Shown here piece by piece: positions 2,558 through 27,636 of a DNA stretch of 36,000 nucleotides. The first letter of the stretch is position 1. Every line of letters starts with the position of its first letter. The stretch lies in IMG/VR virus record IMGVR_UViG_3300020045_010480, positions 1-36,000 of that record, one strand, 5' to 3'. The notes beneath the pieces are model-generated. The model saw nothing but the letters and a program-made list of their open reading frames with translations, did no database searches and was not told the DNA's origin. The stretch is from a virus (Duplodnaviria > Caudoviricetes). Made by a program: the position numbers and the translations under genes.

Positions 2558-4912
2558 TTATATATCGTTTCTAATTTCCCTAGCTGGACCACTTACATTT
2601 TCTGCATATAATTGCTCTCTTTCTAGTTGTATTACTTGTGTATCGTGTTTAGATTTTTCTATGGCAGCCATCTTGTTCATAGCCAAAGTTTCTTGGTTGA
2701 AATTATTTTGATTATCAACTTGTTTTTCTTTAATGACAAGTTCTTGTTGTTTCAACTGTAAACTTAAAGCCTCATACTGTTCAATTTGTTTTCCAGCTTC
2801 TTCAAGTTGAGCTTGTAGTTGCTGAGCTTGAGATGAAGCTTGATTTAATTGATCTGATAATTGTTTAATTTGATCGTGTTCAGCTTTTTTAGTTGCTAAA
2901 CTTTCTTCTACCATTTCTATAATTTCAGTAGCAGAATCAGACATAGCTGTTTTAATAACTATATCAGCTTCAACTGCATCTCTACCAACTAATTCTGGCA
3001 GTATATTCATTACTCTCGCAATTTTTTCTGCGTCACGACTAATATTAAGAATATTAATATTATAATCTGTAAAACAAAAATCTTTTGGCATTATACTAAA
3101 TAATACCATTTTAGAGCCTAATATAAACGAACCTCTTTTACCCTTTATATAAGTAATTTTAGCTTGATTTATTAAGTCACTAAGTATGTTTTCTCTTATA
3201 TTGTATATTAATTCAAATATATCTTTTACTATTAAAGAGGTTTGTTTAATACCAGTTTTGACATTACTTACTGCATCTCTTTCTTCAGCTGCAGAGTACA
3301 TGTATCTATTTACACCTGATATAATATCAGCTTGTTTTTCTAAAGAATCTAAAACTAATTGCATCGCTTCAACAGCTTTACCGTCTAATGATGCTTTAAA
3401 ATCCCCGTAATGTTGGAATAATTCAGCTCCTTCTTCTGTAGGATCAATAAGTTCTACTCCTTGTTTTCTTAGTGCAACAAACTTAAGTAATCTTTCCATA
3501 AAGTTATTGCCTAAAACTTTAGGAATACCAGCCAAGTTAATTCTAGAACCATTTACACCTGAGTTGGCAATTAAGTTATCTCTATGAAAATTGGTTATAT
3601 CATATAAATCTTGAACATCTTTTAGAGCTAAAGCTATAGAATAAGAACGACCATTTCTATCATTGTATGCAACACCATTATAACTTAAAGTAGTTAAAGA
3701 TGGGGCACCAATACTTCTTGGTTCGTGGATGCTTTTACCACAATTAAGATATAGATTCATATCTATTCTAATTGTTTCGTATCTGTTTAATCTATAATGT
3801 TTTTTGGTTGGCTCTCCAGTACCAGTCTGTTCCGGAAAGTATTTACTTTTTACTGCTTTATTTACTGTCTGATGATCTTTCTTTTCTACTTCATCTTCAA
3901 ATTCTACTTCATTATTTGCTAGCCATTCAGTATGATAAACTGTTACTGTGTCCCACATAGTCATTGTATGTTGATTAGCAACTTTCATATTTTCCTGCTT
4001 AGACCAGATGTATTCCATCTGAGAAGGACTAGTTATAATATTGTTTGAACCCACACCAGAACCAAAACTCTTTCCAAATAATTTTTCTAAATCATCTTTT
4101 TCCATTAAGTGACCGTACTCAGTTAATACCTGAGATCTAGTCATATAATATCTATGTACTACAGCAGTAACATTAGGTCTGTTACCAGAGCTCATAAACT
4201 GGAAATTAGTATTCTTATTGAAAAATATATTCTCTGGCTTACAAACTTCTAATACAGGGTCTTCTCCTATTGCGTTTATTCTAGTTCTGTAGTAACATCT
4301 ACCTGTGATAAGTAAGTCTAAAAATAATTGTTTTAGCTTTTGTTTTAATTCTATAGTTTTATCCTTTTCAAAGAAAGTGATTAAATCTTGTGCTACTTTC
4401 TCAAAATCAGATATAAAATTTTTATTTATTCTGTCTATTAAAGTCTTTAAAGTTTTATCACTAACTAAATCATTAGTTAAGTTTACTTTCTTTCTGAATT
4501 GTTCTGTATGTTCTACACTTTGCTTTTTGAATTGATCAAATACAGCTGTGTATTTTGCTGTTAATTTTTTGTCCTCTATAACGCCAATTGTATCTTTATC
4601 ATTAATGGATACTTGATATTTAAAGGTTTCGTCTAATAATAATCCTACTAATACATCAATACGAGTTTTTATTAATGGCGTCATTTTCAAAGACATAGGA
4701 GTTTCTAAACCGTAAACAGTTTGTAAATACTCATATTCTTTAGGATCACGCTTGCCATCGTATAAATCTCGGCATTTTCTAATATTAAGATCTTCATGTA
4801 CTAAAGTAGCAATAAGAAAGTCAGTCTTCTTTTTAAGATAGTCTATACCGTTCTTATCCTTCTCGGATACGTGAACATCTTCAATATTTAAATTTGATGT
4901 AAAATCTAGCAT
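2558..4912 (-). CDS. Portal protein (crAss-like)
   Basis: 784 aa; DLYDGKRD...YEYL, PLIKTRIDVLVG, LDLLITGRCYY, ISGVNR motifs and long C-terminal coiled coil; near TerL. Confidence 0.88.
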   Translation of the reverse strand: MLDFTSNLNIEDVHVSEKDKNGIDYLKKKTDFLIATLVHEDLNIRKCRDLYDGKRDPKEYEYLQTVYGLETPMSLKMTPLIKTRIDVLVGLLLDETFKYQVSINDKDTIGVIEDKKLTAKYTAVFDQFKKQSVEHTEQFRKKVNLTNDLVSDKTLKTLIDRINKNFISDFEKVAQDLITFFEKDKTIELKQKLKQLFLDLLITGRCYYRTRINAIGEDPVLEVCKPENIFFNKNTNFQFMSSGNRPNVTAVVHRYYMTRSQVLTEYGHLMEKDDLEKLFGKSFGSGVGSNNIITSPSQMEYIWSKQENMKVANQHTMTMWDTVTVYHTEWLANNEVEFEDEVEKKDHQTVNKAVKSKYFPEQTGTGEPTKKHYRLNRYETIRIDMNLYLNCGKSIHEPRSIGAPSLTTLSYNGVAYNDRNGRSYSIALALKDVQDLYDITNFHRDNLIANSGVNGSRINLAGIPKVLGNNFMERLLKFVALRKQGVELIDPTEEGAELFQHYGDFKASLDGKAVEAMQLVLDSLEKQADIISGVNRYMYSAAEERDAVSNVKTGIKQTSLIVKDIFELIYNIRENILSDLINQAKITYIKGKRGSFILGSKMVLFSIMPKDFCFTDYNINILNISRDAEKIARVMNILPELVGRDAVEADIVIKTAMSDSATEIIEMVEESLATKKAEHDQIKQLSDQLNQASSQAQQLQAQLEEAGKQIEQYEALSLQLKQQELVIKEKQVDNQNNFNQETLAMNKMAAIEKSKHDTQVIQLEREQLYAENVSGPAREIRNDI

Positions 4913-5502
4913 TATATTTTATATAATATATCTCTGTAATTAACAACTTTTAATTTTAAATCAGAGTCATTTACAATTAAATTCCCTGTATATGGATCGA
5001 TAAAAACCACATCTCCTACTTTAACATCAGAATCCGCATTAGAACCTAATTTTAAAACTACTCCTCTTTGTGTTTGTTTATCTCTTGGATCTAAAGTATC
5101 TTCTACTTTTACTCCATTAATTTCTAAATTTTCGTTTAATACTTCTATAAGTATTCTATCATTTGCTGGTATAATTGTTTCTTTGTTCATGTCTTCTTCT
5201 TTTGAAATTGCTACTACATCATATCCTAATATTACTTTTGTATAATTATCACTAGTTGCTGCGACAGCACCAGAGAATTGATTAAACATTACGAAGTCTC
5301 CTTCTTGTAATCCAGGACATTGTTCCTTGTTAGTAGCATCTTTACCAAGTTTTAATACTTGGCCCATATAGAATTCTACATTTGTTTTACTCGCAAATTG
5401 TTTTCCTAATTTTACACCCTTTATTTCTTTATCTGTAACTTTTATTGATACTAATAAATTAATACCACAAGGTGTAATTTCACTTGATTTAACTTTTCCC
5501 AT
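4912..5502 (-). CDS. groES: Tandem double-domain GroES/Cpn10 co-chaperonin (Cpn20-like)
   Basis: Two Cpn10-like repeats: ITPCGINLLV..GQVLKLG..LQEGDFVMF..YDVVAI and IIPANDRILI..GVVLKLG..VKVGDVVF..RDILY. Confidence 0.85.
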   Translation of the reverse strand: MGKVKSSEITPCGINLLVSIKVTDKEIKGVKLGKQFASKTNVEFYMGQVLKLGKDATNKEQCPGLQEGDFVMFNQFSGAVAATSDNYTKVILGYDVVAISKEEDMNKETIIPANDRILIEVLNENLEINGVKVEDTLDPRDKQTQRGVVLKLGSNADSDVKVGDVVFIDPYTGNLIVNDSDLKLKVVNYRDILYKI

Positions 5503-9132: not shown

Positions 9133-9345
9133 TTATTCTGAGCTTTTAACATGTGACTCGAAGAACCCGTCTCTCCATGTACCTGTTGAAGTTATAACAA
9201 CCATAGTTGGCACCTTTCTTTTGTACTCTTCTTCTATTTCCTTCATTACTGTTTCTAGTTTTTCAACAGTTAAAAGTTTATAGCAAAAATTATCTTTCGT
9301 TAATTTTTCTATTTGAGGTAAAATACCTTCTCCGTTATTCTCCAT
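9133..9345 (-). CDS. Hypothetical protein
   Basis: 70-aa ORF overlapping the upstream stop on the coding strand. Confidence 0.55.
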   Translation of the reverse strand: MENNGEGILPQIEKLTKDNFCYKLLTVEKLETVMKEIEEEYKRKVPTMVVITSTGTWRDGFFESHVKSSE

Positions 9346-9871
9346 ATTGTTTTATGATTTCTTCTTGCTCTGGGGTTACACCTAAAGCTTGTGATCTTGG
9401 AAACATAATATTGTTAGGATCCTTTGAATGTTGTAAACCCATTAAATGAAGTATCTCATGAATAAGTACATATTCATTTGTAATGTAGTCCATATCAACA
9501 ACAAGACAACTTAAATCAGTTCCGAATCTACCTATAAATGATATACCTACTTTTCTACCAGCGTGTTTGCCAGTAAATAACATTGTTATTTTATGCACAT
9601 GTGGATCTCTGTTTTTGAAATTGTCTAGAGAAGAGCTTAATGTAGAATCATCAGCTATAAGGTTTGTAGAAATATAGTCTGATACTTCAAACTTTATATT
9701 ATACTTTTCAAAAAATAAATTGACTTTTCTTATTGATTCAACAGCTGTTACCTTATTACCTTTGTAGGTATAATCAGCGATGATTGACACTTTGAAAGTG
9801 TTTTGGGCCTTAGAACAACTACATAGAATAGAGAGTAACAAAAAGGCCAGGAGTAGTATTCTTCTTTTCAT
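9335..9871 (-). CDS. Secreted or lipoprotein metzincin (matrixin-like) Zn metalloprotease
   Basis: Signal peptide MKRRILLLAFLLLSILCSC; HEILHLMGLQH zinc motif; Met-turn NIMFP. Confidence 0.85.
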   Translation of the reverse strand: MKRRILLLAFLLLSILCSCSKAQNTFKVSIIADYTYKGNKVTAVESIRKVNLFFEKYNIKFEVSDYISTNLIADDSTLSSSLDNFKNRDPHVHKITMLFTGKHAGRKVGISFIGRFGTDLSCLVVDMDYITNEYVLIHEILHLMGLQHSKDPNNIMFPRSQALGVTPEQEEIIKQYGE

Positions 9872-11501: not shown

Positions 11502-12022
11502 TTACTTTCTATCTTACTTAATATCTCTACTTTCTCTATATAGTTTGTTTTCTCATGTAAATATGAAAATATATTATTCCCTTGTGGTAATTTTTCATCT
11601 TTAAATTTATCCATTGACTTCAGGATAAAATATAATTTATTTAAGAAACTAAATTTTAAATGTTCAAACATTAAACTATTATAAATAGCGTTTAAATATC
11701 TTCCAAAGCAGTACATCTTCTCGTGCAGCTTTAACTCTGTCTTTTCCTCCTCTAGTTCTATATCGTTCCAAATATTTTCTAAGTCAGTATTTTTTCTATT
11801 TGGGTCATAATCACTAGTATCATAAGGTACAGATTCTAAATCACCACTATCTTTTATACGAACAAAATCTATATCTTTGATTTCTAATAATTGATACTTT
11901 CTACAAAATACAAATACTTCTTTCTTTTCGTCGTAGAATATTTTAGAGCTAGTTTCTTCTTCTAACTTCTTCATACGACTCGGTGTTACATTGCAACCCA
12001 ATAATCTTATTTTTCTTTCCAT
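11498..12022 (-). CDS. Hypothetical protein, first gene of the leftward transcription unit
   Basis: 174-aa ORF with TATCTTTA element upstream at 12040-12047. Confidence 0.65.
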   Translation of the reverse strand: MERKIRLLGCNVTPSRMKKLEEETSSKIFYDEKKEVFVFCRKYQLLEIKDIDFVRIKDSGDLESVPYDTSDYDPNRKNTDLENIWNDIELEEEKTELKLHEKMYCFGRYLNAIYNSLMFEHLKFSFLNKLYFILKSMDKFKDEKLPQGNNIFSYLHEKTNYIEKVEILSKIESK

Positions 12023-12039
12023 ATTATTCTTATAATACT

Positions 12040-12047
12040 TAAAGATA
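12040..12047 (-). promoter_or_regulatory. Bacteroidota-type -7 promoter element (TAnnTTTG-like); similar elements at 5527-5534, 9109-9116, 9875-9882, 15240-15247, 27640-27647
   Basis: Minus-strand TATCTTTA, TATTTTTA, TATATTTA, TATTTTTA, TATATTTG and TATCTTTC at gene or operon starts. Confidence 0.55.
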
Positions 12048-12309
12048 TAATAAAAAATTTAAAAATTTTAGTACTATACTCTCTGACTATATACATGTAT
12101 CTTTTATAAAATACCCCCGGCCCCTTTTGTTTTGTATGATGAGATAAAATGGTAGGTTGTAAAAATTTTAAAATTTTAAAAAAAAAATTTTTTTATATTT
12201 TCAGACGTAGCCTCGTCCTCTCCCCTCCCTAGCCTGTTTTTGCTGGGGTTCTGGTTCGTCGCTATGGCGAGGGATCTCAGGGTATTATCATAAAATAAAA
12301 CATAAAAAC

Positions 12310-12789
12310 ATGTCTAAAACTGTAAAAATTGCGAAATCAACTTTAATGGATGAAATCGCTATTCCGTCTTTGAAAAATGCTCCTGTAGCAAAAGGTCAAA
12401 CTATCGTAACTGGTGACACACAACCTGGTTTCGAAATTACTCGTGGTTCTCGCAAGATTACTACTACAAACATTTTGTGTGAGGTTAACGGTGGCTTCGT
12501 TGCTATTCCTTTAGCTGAGTTGAACAAAATGCAAACTGCTGATGGCAAGTCTGTATTGAACAAAGATAACGACGAAATCTCTATTCCTGCAACTTTAAAA
12601 GTTGTTGAGTCTAAAGATCGTATGTTAAATGGCGCTCCTGTATACGCAGCACGTTCTTACAAAGGATATGCTGAATACTTGAAAGCTGTTCAAGGTGGTT
12701 TCACTATTGAAGCATACAACGAGTTGTTAAAAACAGGTGTTCTTGAAGGTGCTAAACCAGTTCAAGACTACGTTGTTGAATTAAGCTAA
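12310..12789 (+). CDS. Hypothetical protein, probably highly expressed; first gene of the rightward arm
   Basis: 159 aa; frequent AAC/ATC/TTC/TAC/CGT codons unlike neighbours; own strong terminator. Confidence 0.85.
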   Translation: MSKTVKIAKSTLMDEIAIPSLKNAPVAKGQTIVTGDTQPGFEITRGSRKITTTNILCEVNGGFVAIPLAELNKMQTADGKSVLNKDNDEISIPATLKVVESKDRMLNGAPVYAARSYKGYAEYLKAVQGGFTIEAYNELLKTGVLEGAKPVQDYVVELS

Positions 12790-12795
12790 ATTGGT

Positions 12796-12825
12796 GGGAG
12801 GCTTCGGCTTCCCCCTTTTTTTTTT
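12796..12825 (+). terminator. Intrinsic terminator
   Basis: GGGAGGC-TTCG-GCTTCCC hairpin followed by a 10-T tract. Confidence 0.9.
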
Positions 12826-12828
12826 GTT

Positions 12829-12937
12829 GCCTCGTCCAGTCAGGCCTTAACAAGTCTGTTGGAACAACTTTGCTAGCAATAGCAAATGCCTCTTTGCAAT
12901 TCTGGTGTGTAAGTGTTCAAATCACTCTCTGAGGCCA
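12829..12937 (+). ncRNA. tRNA-like RNA with expanded multi-hairpin middle
   Basis: Terminal stem GCCTCG/TGAGGC followed by CA; T-arm AGTG-TTCAAAT-CACT; internal hairpins CAGGC/GTCTG and TTTGCTA-GCAA-TAGCAAA. Confidence 0.5.
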
Positions 12938-13120
12938 AACCAATTTAAAATTAAACATCATGAACCAAGCAACTTCAAACTCTATTACAATCAATCATTT
13001 CGGAGTAATAACTTCTTTAGATATGATTCGTAACGCGAACGCCTAAAACATAATGATGATGCTACCTATCTCTTGAGTCTTAACAACCAGGATGACGTGG
13101 CATCATTGTTTACCTTCTTT

Positions 13121-13429
13121 ATGTCAGACAAAAAGAAAAAGACTCCTCAGACCGCTTATAGCGCTTCGAGAGAGTGGGAGTCATTGCAACCTCAACGCGA
13201 TGAAGTTAAAGCTGAGATTAACCGTAACTCAGTAAGACCTTCGAAACTAGCAGAATTAAGATATGGCCGAAAAACCATTGCTAGAGAGAAATTAGAATAC
13301 AACAAACAAGATAAAGGAAATTTAAAATTCGTCACAGCACGAGTTGAAATGTTCTCTTTATTAAATCCATTGTTTGAAGCCAAGACAGCAAGTTTTAACT
13401 TTGCTAAGCTTACTAGCTTCAGATTATAA
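13121..13429 (+). CDS. Basic hypothetical protein (ATG 13121 preferred to the track start 13073)
   Basis: 102 aa from MSDKKKK; followed by terminator. Confidence 0.65.
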   Translation: MSDKKKKTPQTAYSASREWESLQPQRDEVKAEINRNSVRPSKLAELRYGRKTIAREKLEYNKQDKGNLKFVTARVEMFSLLNPLFEAKTASFNFAKLTSFRL

Positions 13430-13436
13430 AACAGAA

Positions 13437-13492
13437 ACCCCTTTAGTTATTATTTGATTTATTCATTATATTATACTAAAGGGGCTTTTTTC
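13437..13492 (+). terminator. Probable intrinsic terminator
   Basis: CCCCTTTAGT...ACTAAAGGGG inverted repeat followed by CTTTTTT. Confidence 0.65.
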
Positions 13493-13524
13493 TTCTTCAA
13501 ATCACAACCTACTACTATGAACCA

Positions 13525-14410
13525 ATAATGGAACGAGCTATCATAGCAAGTTCAAACGGAGCCTAATCTTGTATGCTCCTTAAATATTCAGTGCTCGTCA
13601 TAAGACATTTAAAATAATTGATCGCTGTTCTACTGCTTTGGCACCTAGTAAGAGGAATTATATTCCAAACGAAGCGAATGAGAAGTTGATATTAAAAAGA
13701 ATAGTAGTGATAGATCATAGCGGTCTATCCTACTTTACGACATTGAAGGTAGATAAAAGTGAGATAAACAAAGCTCGTCTCAGCCTTCACCAACTGGCTA
13801 AGTCCCGTGTTGCTTCAAGTAAAGCCTCAAACATTTAAGAATAAAGTCCATAACAAGTAGGTAAGTTACGCTACTACATTTGTCTGATAAGCGGTGCCAG
13901 TGTATAATTGGTTGAAGACTATGGCATTTTATTTTAAATATTGGCGGTATAAATTCCGTTAATAAGTGGTGTACGGCAAACAGGTTAACACCTTATCCGT
14001 GACAATAGTTCTTGGCTTGCACCAGGTTATATGGACTATAAGGTACGTTGTGAATGCTTTTCTGCTACTCACAAGCCATGTACTGCTAATGATGTTCGGG
14101 CTGACCATTAGATTATTAAACTGATAAGCTATTTTAAGCTCTAGTAAAACAGTTTGTGTCATTCTTAAAAATGATATGTGATAAGACCAATAGTGTCATC
14201 ACGAAGGTATAAATAAGATAGCGCAAGTCTTCTATACCTTTGAAAAAGAAATTTAAGATAGTGTTTTGATTTTAGTTTTAAAATACTTTTTGTGCACAAG
14301 AGAGCCTCTTCGTATCGGAGGAGCTTTTAAAGAAATTTTAACAAATGGAGATAACCTATGAAAAATAGGAGCTTGAAAGAGTAATAGTATGCTCAGGTAG
14401 CCTTTGTAAT
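13525..14410. ncRNA. Candidate large structured non-coding RNA or RNA cluster (about 900 nt)
   Basis: No convincing ORF, higher GC than flanks, more than a dozen consecutive hairpins and two long-range complementarities. Confidence 0.5.
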
Positions 14411-14436
14411 CGAATTAACAAACAATAAACCAAACC

Positions 14437-14535
14437 ATGGAAACAGCAGAACGTAAAAAAGATCAAAAACTACTAACAAGATTATTATTCTTTGGCTTAG
14501 CTGCTATTGCAATTTTATCTGTAGTTTTATCTTAA
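14437..14535 (+). CDS. 32-aa single-TM microprotein (METAERKKDQKLLTRLLFFGLAAIAILSVVLS)
   Basis: Manual translation; A/C-rich leader typical of genes in this arm. Confidence 0.55.
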   Translation: METAERKKDQKLLTRLLFFGLAAIAILSVVLS

Positions 14536-14552
14536 AGATCCACGTGGAATTC

Positions 14553-14720
14553 AAGCCTTTATGTCCAAAGTTGACTCGCGTAAGCGAAGATGAAGTGTGA
14601 TGTATTGTGAGTATAGCCTCCCGGATTAATTGTAACAACCGTATGATGTGTGGGGAGATCCTACAATGATAACTAAATGCATTCTACGAAAAAGCGCTGT
14701 TCTTCATGAAACAAAGGTTG
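14553..14720. ncRNA. Candidate rod-like structured RNA (about 170 nt)
   Basis: Nested pairings AGCCTTT/AAAGGTT, ATGAAG/CTTCAT, ATGTATT/AATGCAT, CTCCC/GGGAG and a TCGC-GTAA-GCGA hairpin. Confidence 0.4.
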
Positions 14721-14726
14721 TTACTT

Positions 14727-15236
14727 TTATAAGCCTTCAAGATCAGTCTTACCATGAGCTAGTAATAGTTCCATAATAGATTGTCCTTCTTTAACAACAA
14801 TATTAAAATTATTTGTAACGTTCTGAGTTAATGATTCAGCTTTACGAATAAGATCTTTAGATGCTTCAGGTGTTCTACCTCCAGAAATATGAGATGGATT
14901 TAACATATAAAGTCCTCGTTTAACTTTAATAAGTTCTTTTATACTAACCAAATCTCTTATACAATTTTCAACTGTATCGCGACCTAAATTATATTCTTTA
15001 CCTATAGTAATTATATTTTCTGTAGTAATAATATTTTGATCAGATCCTGAAGAAATTAGTGTACTATAAAATGCAACATACCTACTAAATAAAGTTGTAG
15101 CATTTTCTATTTTATATCTAGTAGCTTTTTTAACCCAAGGAAATAAAGGGTCAGGAGTTCGCTTCTCATCTTGTTCTACTATTGTAGTTATATTTCCAAT
15201 CTTGCTTACTTTAGCATTTTTCTTATTAATGTCCAT
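14727..15236 (-). CDS. RepL-like winged-helix DNA-binding protein (ATG 15236)
   Basis: HTH and wing IGKEYNLGRDTVENCIRDLV..LIKVKRGLYMLNP resemble the plasmid/phage RepL family; lone minus-strand gene. Confidence 0.7.
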   Translation of the reverse strand: MDINKKNAKVSKIGNITTIVEQDEKRTPDPLFPWVKKATRYKIENATTLFSRYVAFYSTLISSGSDQNIITTENIITIGKEYNLGRDTVENCIRDLVSIKELIKVKRGLYMLNPSHISGGRTPEASKDLIRKAESLTQNVTNNFNIVVKEGQSIMELLLAHGKTDLEGL

Positions 15237-15255
15237 ATTCAAATATAGATAAAAA

Positions 15256-15326
15256 CCCTGGAACTTACAGGTTATTTTAAATAGAAACCCTGGAAATAAC
15301 CGGGAAGAACCCCTAAAATTTCAGGG
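15256..15326. promoter_or_regulatory. Three 17-bp imperfect palindromes CCCTG-N7-CAGGG, candidate operator or iteron sites
   Basis: CCCTGGAACTTACAGGT (15256-15272), CCCTGGAAATAACCGGG (15288-15304), CCCCTAAAATTTCAGGG (15310-15326). Confidence 0.65.
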
Positions 15327-15542
15327 ATGCGACTCAATGGTAGCATGGAAAGTTGAATCTAAAGAAATAATTTTAGGTTTGATTCGAAGTTTGAAACTGT
15401 TCTACACTGTCCACTACTCACCCGATATTAAAAAACATATAAATTCTCCTCGTAGAAAATAAAAAACTTTCCCCAAAATAACTCACTTAAAAATATAATC
15501 TCTCATTAACAAAATTTTATTAATCCTTAAAAACTTAAAAAT

Positions 15543-15737
15543 ATGACATTATTTCAAATCATTTTAATATTATCCTATTTATTTATTTGTCTAGGATTTA
15601 GTATAAACGCTATTCAACTTTATTTATTAACATCTGAAAACAGTACATTTATAAAAATAAATACATCTTTTTGGATATTAATTTTCTCTCCATTTGCTAT
15701 ATTAATAAAATTAGGTGGATATATATTTAATCTTTAA
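15543..15737 (+). CDS. Small two-TM membrane protein
   Basis: Two hydrophobic segments. Confidence 0.6.
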   Translation: MTLFQIILILSYLFICLGFSINAIQLYLLTSENSTFIKINTSFWILIFSPFAILIKLGGYIFNL

Positions 15738-17764: not shown

Positions 17765-17848
17765 AAAGTCTGTGGGGAAACATTGGTTCGAAACCAATAC
17801 TGTCCTTCGGGGCAGTTCGTCTAGGGGTTCAGGACGCCTCGCGCTTTT
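17765..17848 (+). ncRNA. Circularly permuted tRNA-like RNA (YrlA/Y-RNA-type topology)
   Basis: Order: TGGGG, AAAC, T-arm ATTGG-TTCGAAA-CCAAT, acceptor ACTGTCC-TTCG-GGGCAGT, TC, D-arm GTCT..GGAC, G, CCTCG. Confidence 0.8.
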
Positions 17849-17856
17849 TAATTTAC

Positions 17857-17931
17857 GGTCAACTAGCTCAGTCGGGTAGAGCGGCTCTTAGCAATTTGGG
17901 CAGGTCGTGGGTTCAAATCCCATTTTGATCA
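17857..17931 (+). tRNA. Atypical tRNA or pseudo-tRNA, anticodon undetermined
   Basis: Canonical D-arm GCTC/GAGC and T-arm GTGGG-TTCAAAT-CCCAT; acceptor GGTCAAC/TTTGATC; anticodon stem GCTC/GGGC closes a 10-nt loop TTAGCAATTT. Confidence 0.7.
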
Positions 17932-17959
17932 CATTATTAACATTTAAAATTAAAATCTT

Positions 17960-26695: not shown

Positions 26696-27103
26696 GGGGG
26701 TGATTTGGCACTTGACTATTTTACCAAATTATGAGATGCACGTCGTGAGATGATTTCTATCACGTTAATCTATGTTTTCAAGTCTTAACTGACACTGTTG
26801 TAATAACCAACGAAGTAGGAAGTATCGCTGATGCACCTGCTGTTGTAAAACGCAAATCAGCAAAAGTCATTCAATTGGCACCTGTTTCTAAACCAGGAAG
26901 ATTAGCTTTAGCTGCTTAGGCACTAAAATAATATTAGAAAACCTATTATAATTCTAATTAAGGGTAATACATTAATAAGAATTGAATTGGTGACGTTACA
27001 TGCAAATGTCAATAGTCTGTGCTGGACGATAACTAGTACTAAACGTTGTAGATCCTTATAAGGCGGGGACTGTAAGACACGGGTTCGAATCCCGTCACCT
27101 CCA
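26696..27103 (+). ncRNA. ssrA: tmRNA
   Basis: Acceptor GGGGGTG/CACCTCC-A with G3:U70, 5' GG..TTGAC motif, T-arm ACGGG-TTCGAAT-CCCGT, TAACT-G resume context, tag frame ending LALAA-TAG. Confidence 0.93.
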
Positions 27104-27126
27104 CTGTTAACAAGGGATTCTAAGAG

Positions 27127-27636
27127 TTAATGCTTAGAATCCTTTATTTTATCTGATATACTGATAACACATTTAATTAAATCCTTATGTGCCAACCTAT
27201 GGCAATTAGGACATAAAATAATTAAATTATTTAATTCATCAGATCCACCATCACATTTTGGTTTAATATTATGTATATCACATACACATTTATCCCAACC
27301 ACAATTAAAACATTTGTATAATATATCATGTGTTGCGCCTAATCTTATAATTTTTTTACTTAGATTAGTTCTTCCCATTGTAGGGTTTATTTTATTTATT
27401 GAAATTTTAATTTTATTTTTACAACTTTCTTTACAGTATTTAGTCTTTGGACTTTTACTATCAAATTCTTTATTACATGACAAACAAGTTACTTTTGTTA
27501 ATGGCCTATTAAGATTTTGGTGTGTAACACCACAACTTCTACTACAAAATTTACCCATACCCTTATTTATATAATGCTGTTGAGTAAAAAATTCTTTATT
27601 GCATTGTAAACAATTTCTTTTTATATTTCCTTTCAT
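27127..27636 (-). CDS. HNH endonuclease with N-terminal zinc fingers, possibly inactive
   Basis: CxxC...FCSRSC repeats and CFNCG...DIHNIKP..GGSDELNNLIILCPNCH. Confidence 0.85.
   Translation of the reverse strand: MKGNIKRNCLQCNKEFFTQQHYINKGMGKFCSRSCGVTHQNLNRPLTKVTCLSCNKEFDSKSPKTKYCKESCKNKIKISINKINPTMGRTNLSKKIIRLGATHDILYKCFNCGWDKCVCDIHNIKPKCDGGSDELNNLIILCPNCHRLAHKDLIKCVISISDKIKDSKH

What the first reader, a model, noticed from the sequence alone, without database searches (positions are those of the whole stretch)
13525..14410. About 900 nt of gene-free, hairpin-dense sequence with long-range pairings
Seen: consecutive stems including GGAGC/GCTCC, GATAGATC/GGTCTATC, TGAAGG/CCTTCA, TTGGCGG/CCGTTAA, TTGTGA/TCACAA, CTAATG/CATTAG, AAACTG/CAGTTT and AAGGTATA/TATACCTT. 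Long-range pairs TTGGCACC (13638)/GGTGCCAG (13893) and AGTCCATA (about 13846)/TATGGACT (about 14030) cross each other. Known: very large phage-associated RNAs exist (GOLLD, ROOL), often near tRNAs. I cannot assign this one. Inference: an undescribed large ncRNA or RNA cluster.
Basis: partly seen in the sequence, partly recalled or inferred. Interest (0 to 1): 0.72.

Follow-up and report, generated by a model that had tools for sequence, protein, structure and literature searches.

The report
New modular crAss-like phage RNA
This gene-free stretch of an uncultured crAss-like phage is conserved and shows compensating base-pair changes in related phages, so it likely encodes a large folded non-coding RNA of no catalogued family, predicted to work like the giant "ornate" phage RNAs whose job is still unknown.

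Summary
From one sequence alone they are weak evidence: stem counts match shuffles and the folding z-score is only -2.4.

Comparison supports the element. In a syntenic relative (L001) the core 13607-13737 is 89% identical, above neighbouring genes (69-81%). Of the pairs predicted from the window alone, 10 of 12 changed on both sides still pair (P about 0.012). A model built from these two sequences finds the same three-way junction in two more distant, mutually close contigs (35 bits against a background of 18.5). The 13640/13893 pseudoknot is supported; the 13845/14030 pair is not.

The element is modular: a conserved core, swappable inserts (one tRNA-like) and lineage-specific ends. It matches no Rfam family and is not homologous to the phi14:2 long RNAs.

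Best reading: a new family of large, pseudoknotted phage RNA on the + strand, about 13505-14420, likely a trans-acting scaffold or decoy like GOLLD and ROOL. Expression, ends and function are untested, and only about four lineages are known. Interest 0.58.

The parts
13505..14420 (+). Whole candidate ncRNA gene (ends inferred from conservation, not mapped)
   Evidence: Aligned blocks with L001. + strand favoured: 10 of 12 and 13 of 17 double-changed pairs kept on +, against 3 of 9 and 6 of 9 on -
13428..13494 (+). Upstream hairpin with U-rich tail, terminator-like or 5' boundary
   Evidence: Inverted repeat I12; arms change together in L001 (read by eye); identical over 13435-13495 in an X1 contig; not listed by the terminator scan
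13505..13606 (+). 5' domain: helix 13533-13538/13593-13598, inner helix 13558-13562/13575-13579, possible pseudoknots 13518-13522/13550-13554 and 13537-13541/13717-13721
   Evidence: 79% identical to L001; 3 of 6 pairs of the outer helix change on both sides and stay paired; pseudoknot candidates are invariant or one-sided only; no match in L005/L137
13622..13688 (+). Clade-wide core: three-way junction (13622-26/13673-77; 13630-48 hairpin; 13654-57/13663-66 hairpin) plus conserved purine-rich tail; candidate k-junction
   Evidence: Model from window + L001 finds L137 and L005 at 35.5 and 35.3 bits, E about 1.5e-5, next hit 18.5; 6 of 17 pairs with double changes, 98.5% of cells paired on the model-fitted alignment; k-junction reading is my inference against the definition in PMC10573300
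13703..13734 (+). Invariant hairpin GATAGATC/GGTCTATC with extension; its 5' part can alternatively pair with 13510-13518
   Evidence: Identical in L001 and no listed difference in X1; invariant pairs do not prove the structure
13744..13792 (+). Variable insert: acceptor-like stem plus T-stem-like hairpin ending in CCA; in L001 a four-stem cloverleaf with a perfect T arm sits here
   Evidence: Folds and T-arm scan; not called by ARAGORN; X1 has unlike sequence after 13744
13793..13837 (+). Second clade-wide motif with hairpin 13812-13815/13822-13825 (T-loop-like UUCAA loop)
   Evidence: Found in L001, L005, L137; 4 of 4 pairs kept in 4 of 4 sequences, one double change, not significant alone (131 of 500 shuffles)
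13640..13898 (+). Long-range pseudoknot GGCACC (13640-13645) with GGTGCC (13893-13898), spanning the tRNA-like insert
   Evidence: Only 6-bp partner in 930 nt, 81 nt from the second motif; in L001 the changed strand has 2 partners in 1005 nt, one 79 nt from the same motif; X1 change at 13644 would give a U-G pair if the partner is unchanged. Competes with a 3-bp tetraloop tip at 13634-13643
13838..14112 (+). Variable middle region with several stems; AGTCCATA/TATGGACT pair unsupported
   Evidence: 40% identity to L001
14113..14250 (+). 3' domain: helices 14118-23/14150-55, 14156-63/14170-77, 14202-08/14236-42, 14215-19/14227-31
   Evidence: 9 of 27 consensus pairs with double changes against L001; X1 independently swaps 14163/14170 from U-A to G-C; no match in L005/L137
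14256..14420 (+). Two window-specific hairpins (about 14256-14295 and 14299-14328), then a weakly conserved tail 14370-14418
   Evidence: Folds; 74% over 50 nt with L001, E 0.48; alignment
14727..15242 (-). Context: convergent RepL-like winged-helix gene, syntenic neighbour in L001, L005, L137
   Evidence: Pfam RepL in 9 of 10 homologs at E up to 1, best E 5e-4; the window protein scores 13.4 bits, under the cut-off of 20.3; Foldseek second hit a crAss-like replication protein, E 3e-3, low-confidence model

Best explanation
The stretch 13505-14420 is conserved among related crAss-like phages with compensatory base changes and is likely a single + strand gene for a large pseudoknotted non-coding RNA, predicted to accumulate during infection and to act in trans as a folded scaffold that would display swappable, partly tRNA-like modules to host RNA-binding factors. 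Shown: conservation above flanking genes, compensatory pairs in three domains, a three-way-junction core shared by all lineages found, broken ORFs, module gain and loss. Inferred: transcription and strand; one molecule (the 13640/13893 pseudoknot spans the tRNA-like insert, as GOLLD's domains flank a linker that sometimes holds tRNAs); a k-junction and a T-loop-like hairpin that organise a compact fold; self-assembly through loop-loop pairing; a decoy or sequestering role towards host tRNA-binding enzymes or ribosome parts. My odds: real structured RNA 0.88; one large molecule given that, 0.65; GOLLD/ROOL-like scaffold or decoy role overall about 0.45.
For: Core 13607-13737 is 116 of 131 identical to L001 against 69-81% for flanking blocks. 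An X1 contig keeps 13605-13744 (5 differences, 2 gaps) and another 14113-14282, with unlike sequence beside them. Blind test: of 66 window-predicted pairs in aligned blocks, 10 of 12 double-changed pairs stay paired, P=0.012 under a null that fixes the changed sites; reverse direction 13 of 17. Model R1, built without L005/L137, finds them at 35 bits against 18.5. Long-range partner at +81 and +79 from the same anchor in window and L001. L001 has 76- and 41-nt inserts; L005 has inserts of about 100 and 330 nt relative to L137, next to repeated T-loop-type hairpins. Position at the start of the rightward gene block resembles the abundant early long RNAs of phi14:2 (passages). ROOL and GOLLD form RNA-only cages with variable linkers.
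Against: No expression data. Only about four lineages (window, L001, partial X1, and the close pair L005/L137), so no formal covariation statistics. In the blind test 14 of 66 pairs are broken in L001 against 18.4 expected (P=0.10), partly through a register shift in the alignment. Single-sequence stem counts are at chance and L001 folds at z -1.57. The 5' and 3' domains have no match in L005/L137, which fits a cluster of separate RNAs equally well. The pseudoknot competes with a UNNG tetraloop tip. No convincing promoter: the nearest Bacteroidetes-type element (13396; motif recalled) is not conserved in L001. No direct evidence for oligomerisation or any host partner.
Confidence: 0.45

Rival explanations
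1. A co-transcribed array of several small structured RNAs, cut apart by host RNase P/E/Z at tRNA-like punctuation elements; each module works alone (decoys, antisense or anti-defence RNAs).
For: Modules are gained and lost between close relatives; 5' and 3' domains have no match in L005/L137; tRNA-like elements at 13744-13792, twice in L001, and a permuted tRNA-like element at 17771-17844; the window element ends in CCA.
Against: The 13640/13893 pairing links sequence on both sides of the tRNA-like insert and covaries in L001; the order of the two core motifs is fixed in 4 of 4 sequences; the L001 element has no CCA after its stem.
Confidence: 0.25
2. A replication-linked element: a primer or regulatory RNA, or folded single-stranded DNA, serving an origin defined by the neighbouring RepL-like gene and its three conserved repeats (like ARRPOF or GEBRO).
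For: RepL-like convergent neighbour in L001, L005 and L137; three palindromic repeats upstream of it in 5 of 5 loci printed; cumulative GC skew bottoms out at about 12000-15500; plasmid-replication motifs are described in PMC5737381.
Against: The skew follows the coding-strand switch; the repeats lie about 850 nt away on the far side of the gene and could be autoregulatory operators; L138 has the gene and repeats but a coding gene in the 480 nt downstream; G-U substitutions favour RNA on one strand.
Confidence: 0.1
3. A catalytic RNA: a self-splicing intron relic, RNase P-like RNA or small self-cleaving ribozyme cluster.
For: Nested pseudoknots and conserved unpaired junction bases; large crAss-like phages are rich in introns (recalled).
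Against: No intron, RNase P or ribozyme family among the 6 hits at E up to 10 in the window, nor at E up to 5 in L001 and L005; no interrupted gene or tRNA halves on either side.
Confidence: 0.1
4. No functional RNA: promoter, terminator or DNA-binding sites and decayed ORFs whose hairpins are chance.
For: Stem counts equal shuffles; middle region only 40% identical; invariant hairpin 13703-13734 could be a DNA site.
Against: Compensatory double changes in three domains and in three independent comparisons; conservation above coding neighbours.
Confidence: 0.1

Closest known systems
GOLLD RNA (Rfam family in the library searched)
   Same: Phage-encoded, about 800 nt or more, multi-domain with pseudoknots, conserved part plus less conserved part, tRNAs sometimes in the linker (10.1101/2024.12.08.627333 passages); here a tRNA-like module sits between the core motifs.
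   Different: No GOLLD hit at E up to 10; the universally kept part here is central, about 70 + 45 nt, not a 3' domain; not inside a tRNA array; cage formation untested.
ROOL RNA
   Same: Phage or prophage large RNA with several pseudoknots and a variable linker.
   Different: [quoted passage not shown]
Early long non-coding RNAs of Cellulophaga crAss-like phage phi14:2 (g004-g005, g005-g006)
   Same: crAss-like phage; long gene-free stretch near the start of the rightward early block; reported as abundant and persistent, function unknown.
   Different: No homology: model R2 with filters off gives no hit in 2905-4601 and at best 19.8 bits elsewhere in 12 kb; four profile HMMs and blastn give nothing meaningful. 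One of the phi14:2 stretches holds a tmRNA.
k-junction motif (TPP riboswitch, DUF-3268 RNA)
   Same: Three-way junction with a 3-nt bulge followed by GA on one strand, and GA next to a third helix on the other, kept in 4 of 4 sequences (definition from PMC10573300).
   Different: A motif, not a family; 4 extra bases lie between the GA and the next helix; no riboswitch hit; geometry untested.
ARRPOF and GEBRO plasmid replication motifs
   Same: Gene-free structured element next to replication functions.
   Different: 223-349 nt plasmid motifs; no Rfam hit here; lytic-phage context.

Membership tests
GOLLD | Match to the Rfam covariance model (conserved 3' domain) | tested here: not met
   No hit at gathering score or E up to 10; none in L001 or L005 at E up to 5
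GOLLD | Phage location near tRNA arrays | tested here: inconclusive
   Phage yes; nearest tRNA-like gene 3.4 kb away, tRNA-Cys about 1 kb away in L001
GOLLD | RNA-only multimeric cage | not testable with these tools
   Needs mass photometry or cryo-EM
ROOL | Match to the Rfam covariance model | tested here: not met
ROOL | [quoted passage not shown] | tested here: inconclusive
   One pseudoknot with covariation, two invariant candidates; too few homologs for a full topology
Large ornate phage ncRNA (as a kind) | Over 500 nt without a conserved ORF, with covarying multi-domain structure | tested here: met
Large ornate phage ncRNA (as a kind) | Expressed as one abundant transcript | not testable with these tools
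   No RNA holder listed
phi14:2 early long RNAs | Sequence or structure homology | tested here: not met
Group I / group II intron, RNase P, small ribozymes | Match to catalytic-core models; interrupted host gene for introns | tested here: not met
k-junction | 3-nt bulge plus tandem G-A/A-G next to a third helix (sequence pattern) | tested here: inconclusive
   Pattern kept in 4 of 4 sequences by my reading, with a non-standard 4-nt insertion
k-junction | Ion-induced kinked fold | not testable with these tools
   Needs FRET or a structure
tRNA | Full cloverleaf with D arm and anticodon at 13744-13792 | tested here: not met
   Not called by ARAGORN or Rfam; only acceptor-like and T-stem-like parts

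The most novel reading that the evidence does not exclude
A new class of giant phage RNA built as a cassette: a small invariant k-junction/T-loop core is locked by a long-range pseudoknot and self-assembles into an RNA-only particle, while interchangeable modules, including tRNA mimics, are plugged in between its domains and swapped between related phages as an RNA arsenal against host defences such as tRNA-cleaving nucleases.
Probability: 0.15. Interest if true: 0.88.

Novelty: new variant of a known kind. Interest (0 to 1): 0.58.

Why it matters
Only a handful of large, intricately folded bacterial or phage RNAs are known, and their functions are open. This adds an uncatalogued family from an environmental crAss-like lineage with natural deletion and insertion variants (about 700 to 1100 nt) around a very small shared core. 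Those variants give ready constructs to test which part folds, whether it assembles into cages as GOLLD and ROOL do, and whether tRNA-like inserts are cargo, decoys or processing signals.

Tried and rejected
Rfam: no family in window 12000-15600 (6 weak hits, E 2.6-9.5), L001 or L005.

GenBank phages: no match for 13450-14700 at E 0.01; only short chance hits at E 10 for the window core, L001 and L005.

Protein-guided scans: the 159-aa neighbour found nothing; the terminase found 5 loci; the RepL-like protein found 2 viral, 2 metagenome and 1 weak genome locus. L003 and L002 end before the syntenic place, L004 has other genes there, L138 is short.

Model searches of whole records and 151 Bacteroidota-phylum genomes found nothing new, but the filters missed the known L005 hit, so these blanks are weak. 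Sequencing runs: no RNA holder listed.

Conserved small ORFs as the explanation: rejected. A second copy of the core in the window: none above 18.5 bits. A TTGGCAT strand in L005/L137 has a partner 71 nt after the second motif, but it lies in an antisense ORF and at a different place in the RNA, so I left it unresolved. Promoter scan: 24 sigma-70-like sites against 15.3 +/- 3.7 in shuffles, none clearly marking the start.

Literature searches that found no description of this RNA. The library lacks most subscription papers and I saw no supplements, so a listing in a supplementary table (for example of PMC5737381) is not excluded except through Rfam.

Full report
Setting. The window is a fragment of a crAss-like phage: portal (phrog_6547) and large terminase (phrog_6681) on the minus strand, whose best database relatives are crAss-like phage terminases at only about 25% identity. 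It has tRNA-Lys, tRNA-Gln, an odd tRNA at 17857 and a tmRNA at 26696-27106. The finding lies where the coding strand switches, in a short plus-strand island between a 118-aa ORF (13073-13429) and a convergent RepL-like gene (14727-15242).

Observation. All ten stems exist and the two long-range pairs cross. On the single sequence this is weak: stem counts do not exceed 300 dinucleotide shuffles, and long-range 7-8 bp matches are fewer than expected. The whole region folds at z -2.38 on the plus strand and -1.23 on the minus strand. Rfam gives nothing at E up to 10.

Homologs. A terminase search gave 5 loci. L001 is syntenic and aligns in blocks: 79% over 13505-13606, 89% over 13607-13737, 73% over 13793-13837 and 14113-14172, about 40% between them, against 69-81% for flanking coding blocks. 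Run X1 holds a third phage that keeps 13605-13744 and 14113-14282 but runs on into unlike sequence beside them. L005 and the close relative L137 (87-93% alike) have gene-free stretches of about 1100 and 700 nt at the same place. By eye they share two motifs with the window. A covariance model built only from the window and L001 finds the first motif in L137 and L005 at 35.5 and 35.3 bits, E about 1.5e-5, with the next hit at 18.5 in 87,560 bases. Further scans found no more members. The family stands at four sequences plus one partial, about four lineages.

Covariation. I folded the window alone, kept 66 pairs above probability 0.5 inside four aligned blocks, and read them in L001: 34 unchanged, 8 kept with one change, 10 kept with two changes, 12 broken by one change, 2 by two. 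Ten of twelve double changes staying paired has P=0.012 under a null that fixes the changed sites and draws letters from the observed spectrum; a site-shuffling null gives under 1 in 5000 but ignores clustering. The count of broken pairs is not significantly low in this direction (14 against 18.4, P=0.10) and is in the other (13 against 21.7, P=0.004); several breaks come from a register shift in the AAGGTATA stem. The minus strand keeps 3 of 9 and 6 of 9. Helix 13533-38/13593-98 has three double changes, the 3' domain 9 of 27, and X1 independently swaps 14163/14170. On the model-fitted four-sequence core, 6 of 17 pairs have double changes, but that alignment leans towards the structure. For the long-range pair, GGCACC has one partner in 930 nt, 81 nt from the second motif; L001's changed strand has two partners in 1005 nt, one of them 79 nt from the same motif, roughly a 1% coincidence by my estimate. 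It competes with a short tetraloop tip. AGTCCATA/TATGGACT has no counterpart in L001.

Anatomy. After a terminator-like hairpin (13428-13494) come a 5' domain, the three-way-junction core, an invariant hairpin, a variable insert, the second motif, a variable middle, a 3' domain and a weak tail to about 14420. In the core a 3-nt bulge and GA on one strand and GA beside a third helix on the other are kept in all four sequences, which fits the k-junction definition in PMC10573300 (part 1 of 6 read), apart from four extra bases; this is inference. The insert at 13744-13792 folds as an acceptor-like stem plus hairpin and ends in CCA; L001 has there a four-stem cloverleaf with a perfect T arm that ARAGORN does not call. 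L001 has 76- and 41-nt inserts. L005 has inserts of about 100 and 330 nt relative to L137, beside repeated T-loop-type hairpins. The 5' and 3' domains have no match in L005/L137. Small ORFs are not conserved.

Mechanism. The best reading is one large plus-strand RNA acting in trans as a folded scaffold or decoy (0.45). The pseudoknot spanning the tRNA-like insert argues for one fold. The analogy is GOLLD and ROOL, which form RNA-only cages with variable linkers, GOLLD's sometimes holding tRNAs (10.1101/2024.12.08.627333, part 1 of 7 and passages; PMC12286853 passages). phi14:2 makes abundant, persistent long RNAs from its early region (10.1101/2020.03.07.982082 passages), and phage K makes two near tRNAs (PMC9241854 passages). 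Transcription, ends, assembly and partners are all untested here. Rivals: a processed cluster of small RNAs (0.25), a replication-linked element beside the RepL-like gene (0.10; PMC5737381 passages), a ribozyme or intron relic (0.10), and no functional RNA (0.10).

Comparison and novelty. It is not a member of GOLLD, ROOL or any Rfam family, and not homologous to the phi14:2 RNAs. Eight literature searches found no description; supplements were not seen. Earlier scan notes list several other large crAss-like phage RNAs, but look-ups by sequence found no look-alike of this one. It is a new family of a known kind. The real structure and modular build raise the score; the thin sampling, missing expression data and inferred function hold it at 0.58.

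Noticed in passing
window 17771-17844 (+): Circularly permuted tRNA-like element directly before the odd tRNA at 17857: T arm, acceptor stem closed by a UUCG loop, D arm, and an anticodon-like stem formed by the two ends. This is the layout described for YrlA Y RNAs (10.1101/312249 passages). It folds at -25.7 kcal/mol and ARAGORN in circular mode with a lowered threshold calls a wrap-around tRNA; no YrlA hit in Rfam at E up to 1.
   Followed up: partly
window 17857-17932 (+): tRNA with an 8-nt anticodon loop (ARAGORN 'gcaa', Rfam 40 bits): a pseudogene, a four-base anticodon or a decoy.
   Followed up: no
window 15252-15326: Three palindromic repeats upstream of the RepL-like gene, conserved in 5 of 5 loci printed (window, L001, L137, L139, L138): operators or iterons.
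   Followed up: partly
window 26696-27106 (+) and 27127-27636 (-): Phage tmRNA (63 bits) followed by a convergent HNH endonuclease gene.
   Followed up: no
L203 (phi14:2, NC_021806.1) 4031-4502 (+): A tmRNA (ARAGORN call; Rfam 46 bits against a cut-off of 47, E 1e-16) lies in the long gene-free stretch before g006, so one of the two 'long non-coding RNAs of unknown function' reported for phi14:2 is probably a tmRNA. The match to the paper's gene numbering is my inference.
   Followed up: partly
L005 840-1900 and L137 1130-1790 (-): The part upstream of the shared core and the L005-specific 330-nt insert look structured and pseudoknotted in their own right, with no match to the window or Rfam.
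   Followed up: partly
L001 about 3175-3245 (-); window 12790-13070; L005 2650-3250: A second gene-free or hairpin-rich stretch upstream in the same island; in L001 it holds another acceptor-plus-T-arm element.
   Followed up: no
window 14437-14535 (+): 32-aa ORF with a hydrophobic C-terminal half right after the RNA; no counterpart among the L001 ORFs.
   Followed up: no
window 4912-5502 (-) and 9335-9871 (-): A GroES-like co-chaperonin gene between terminase and portal, and a secreted-type metallopeptidase gene.
   Followed up: no
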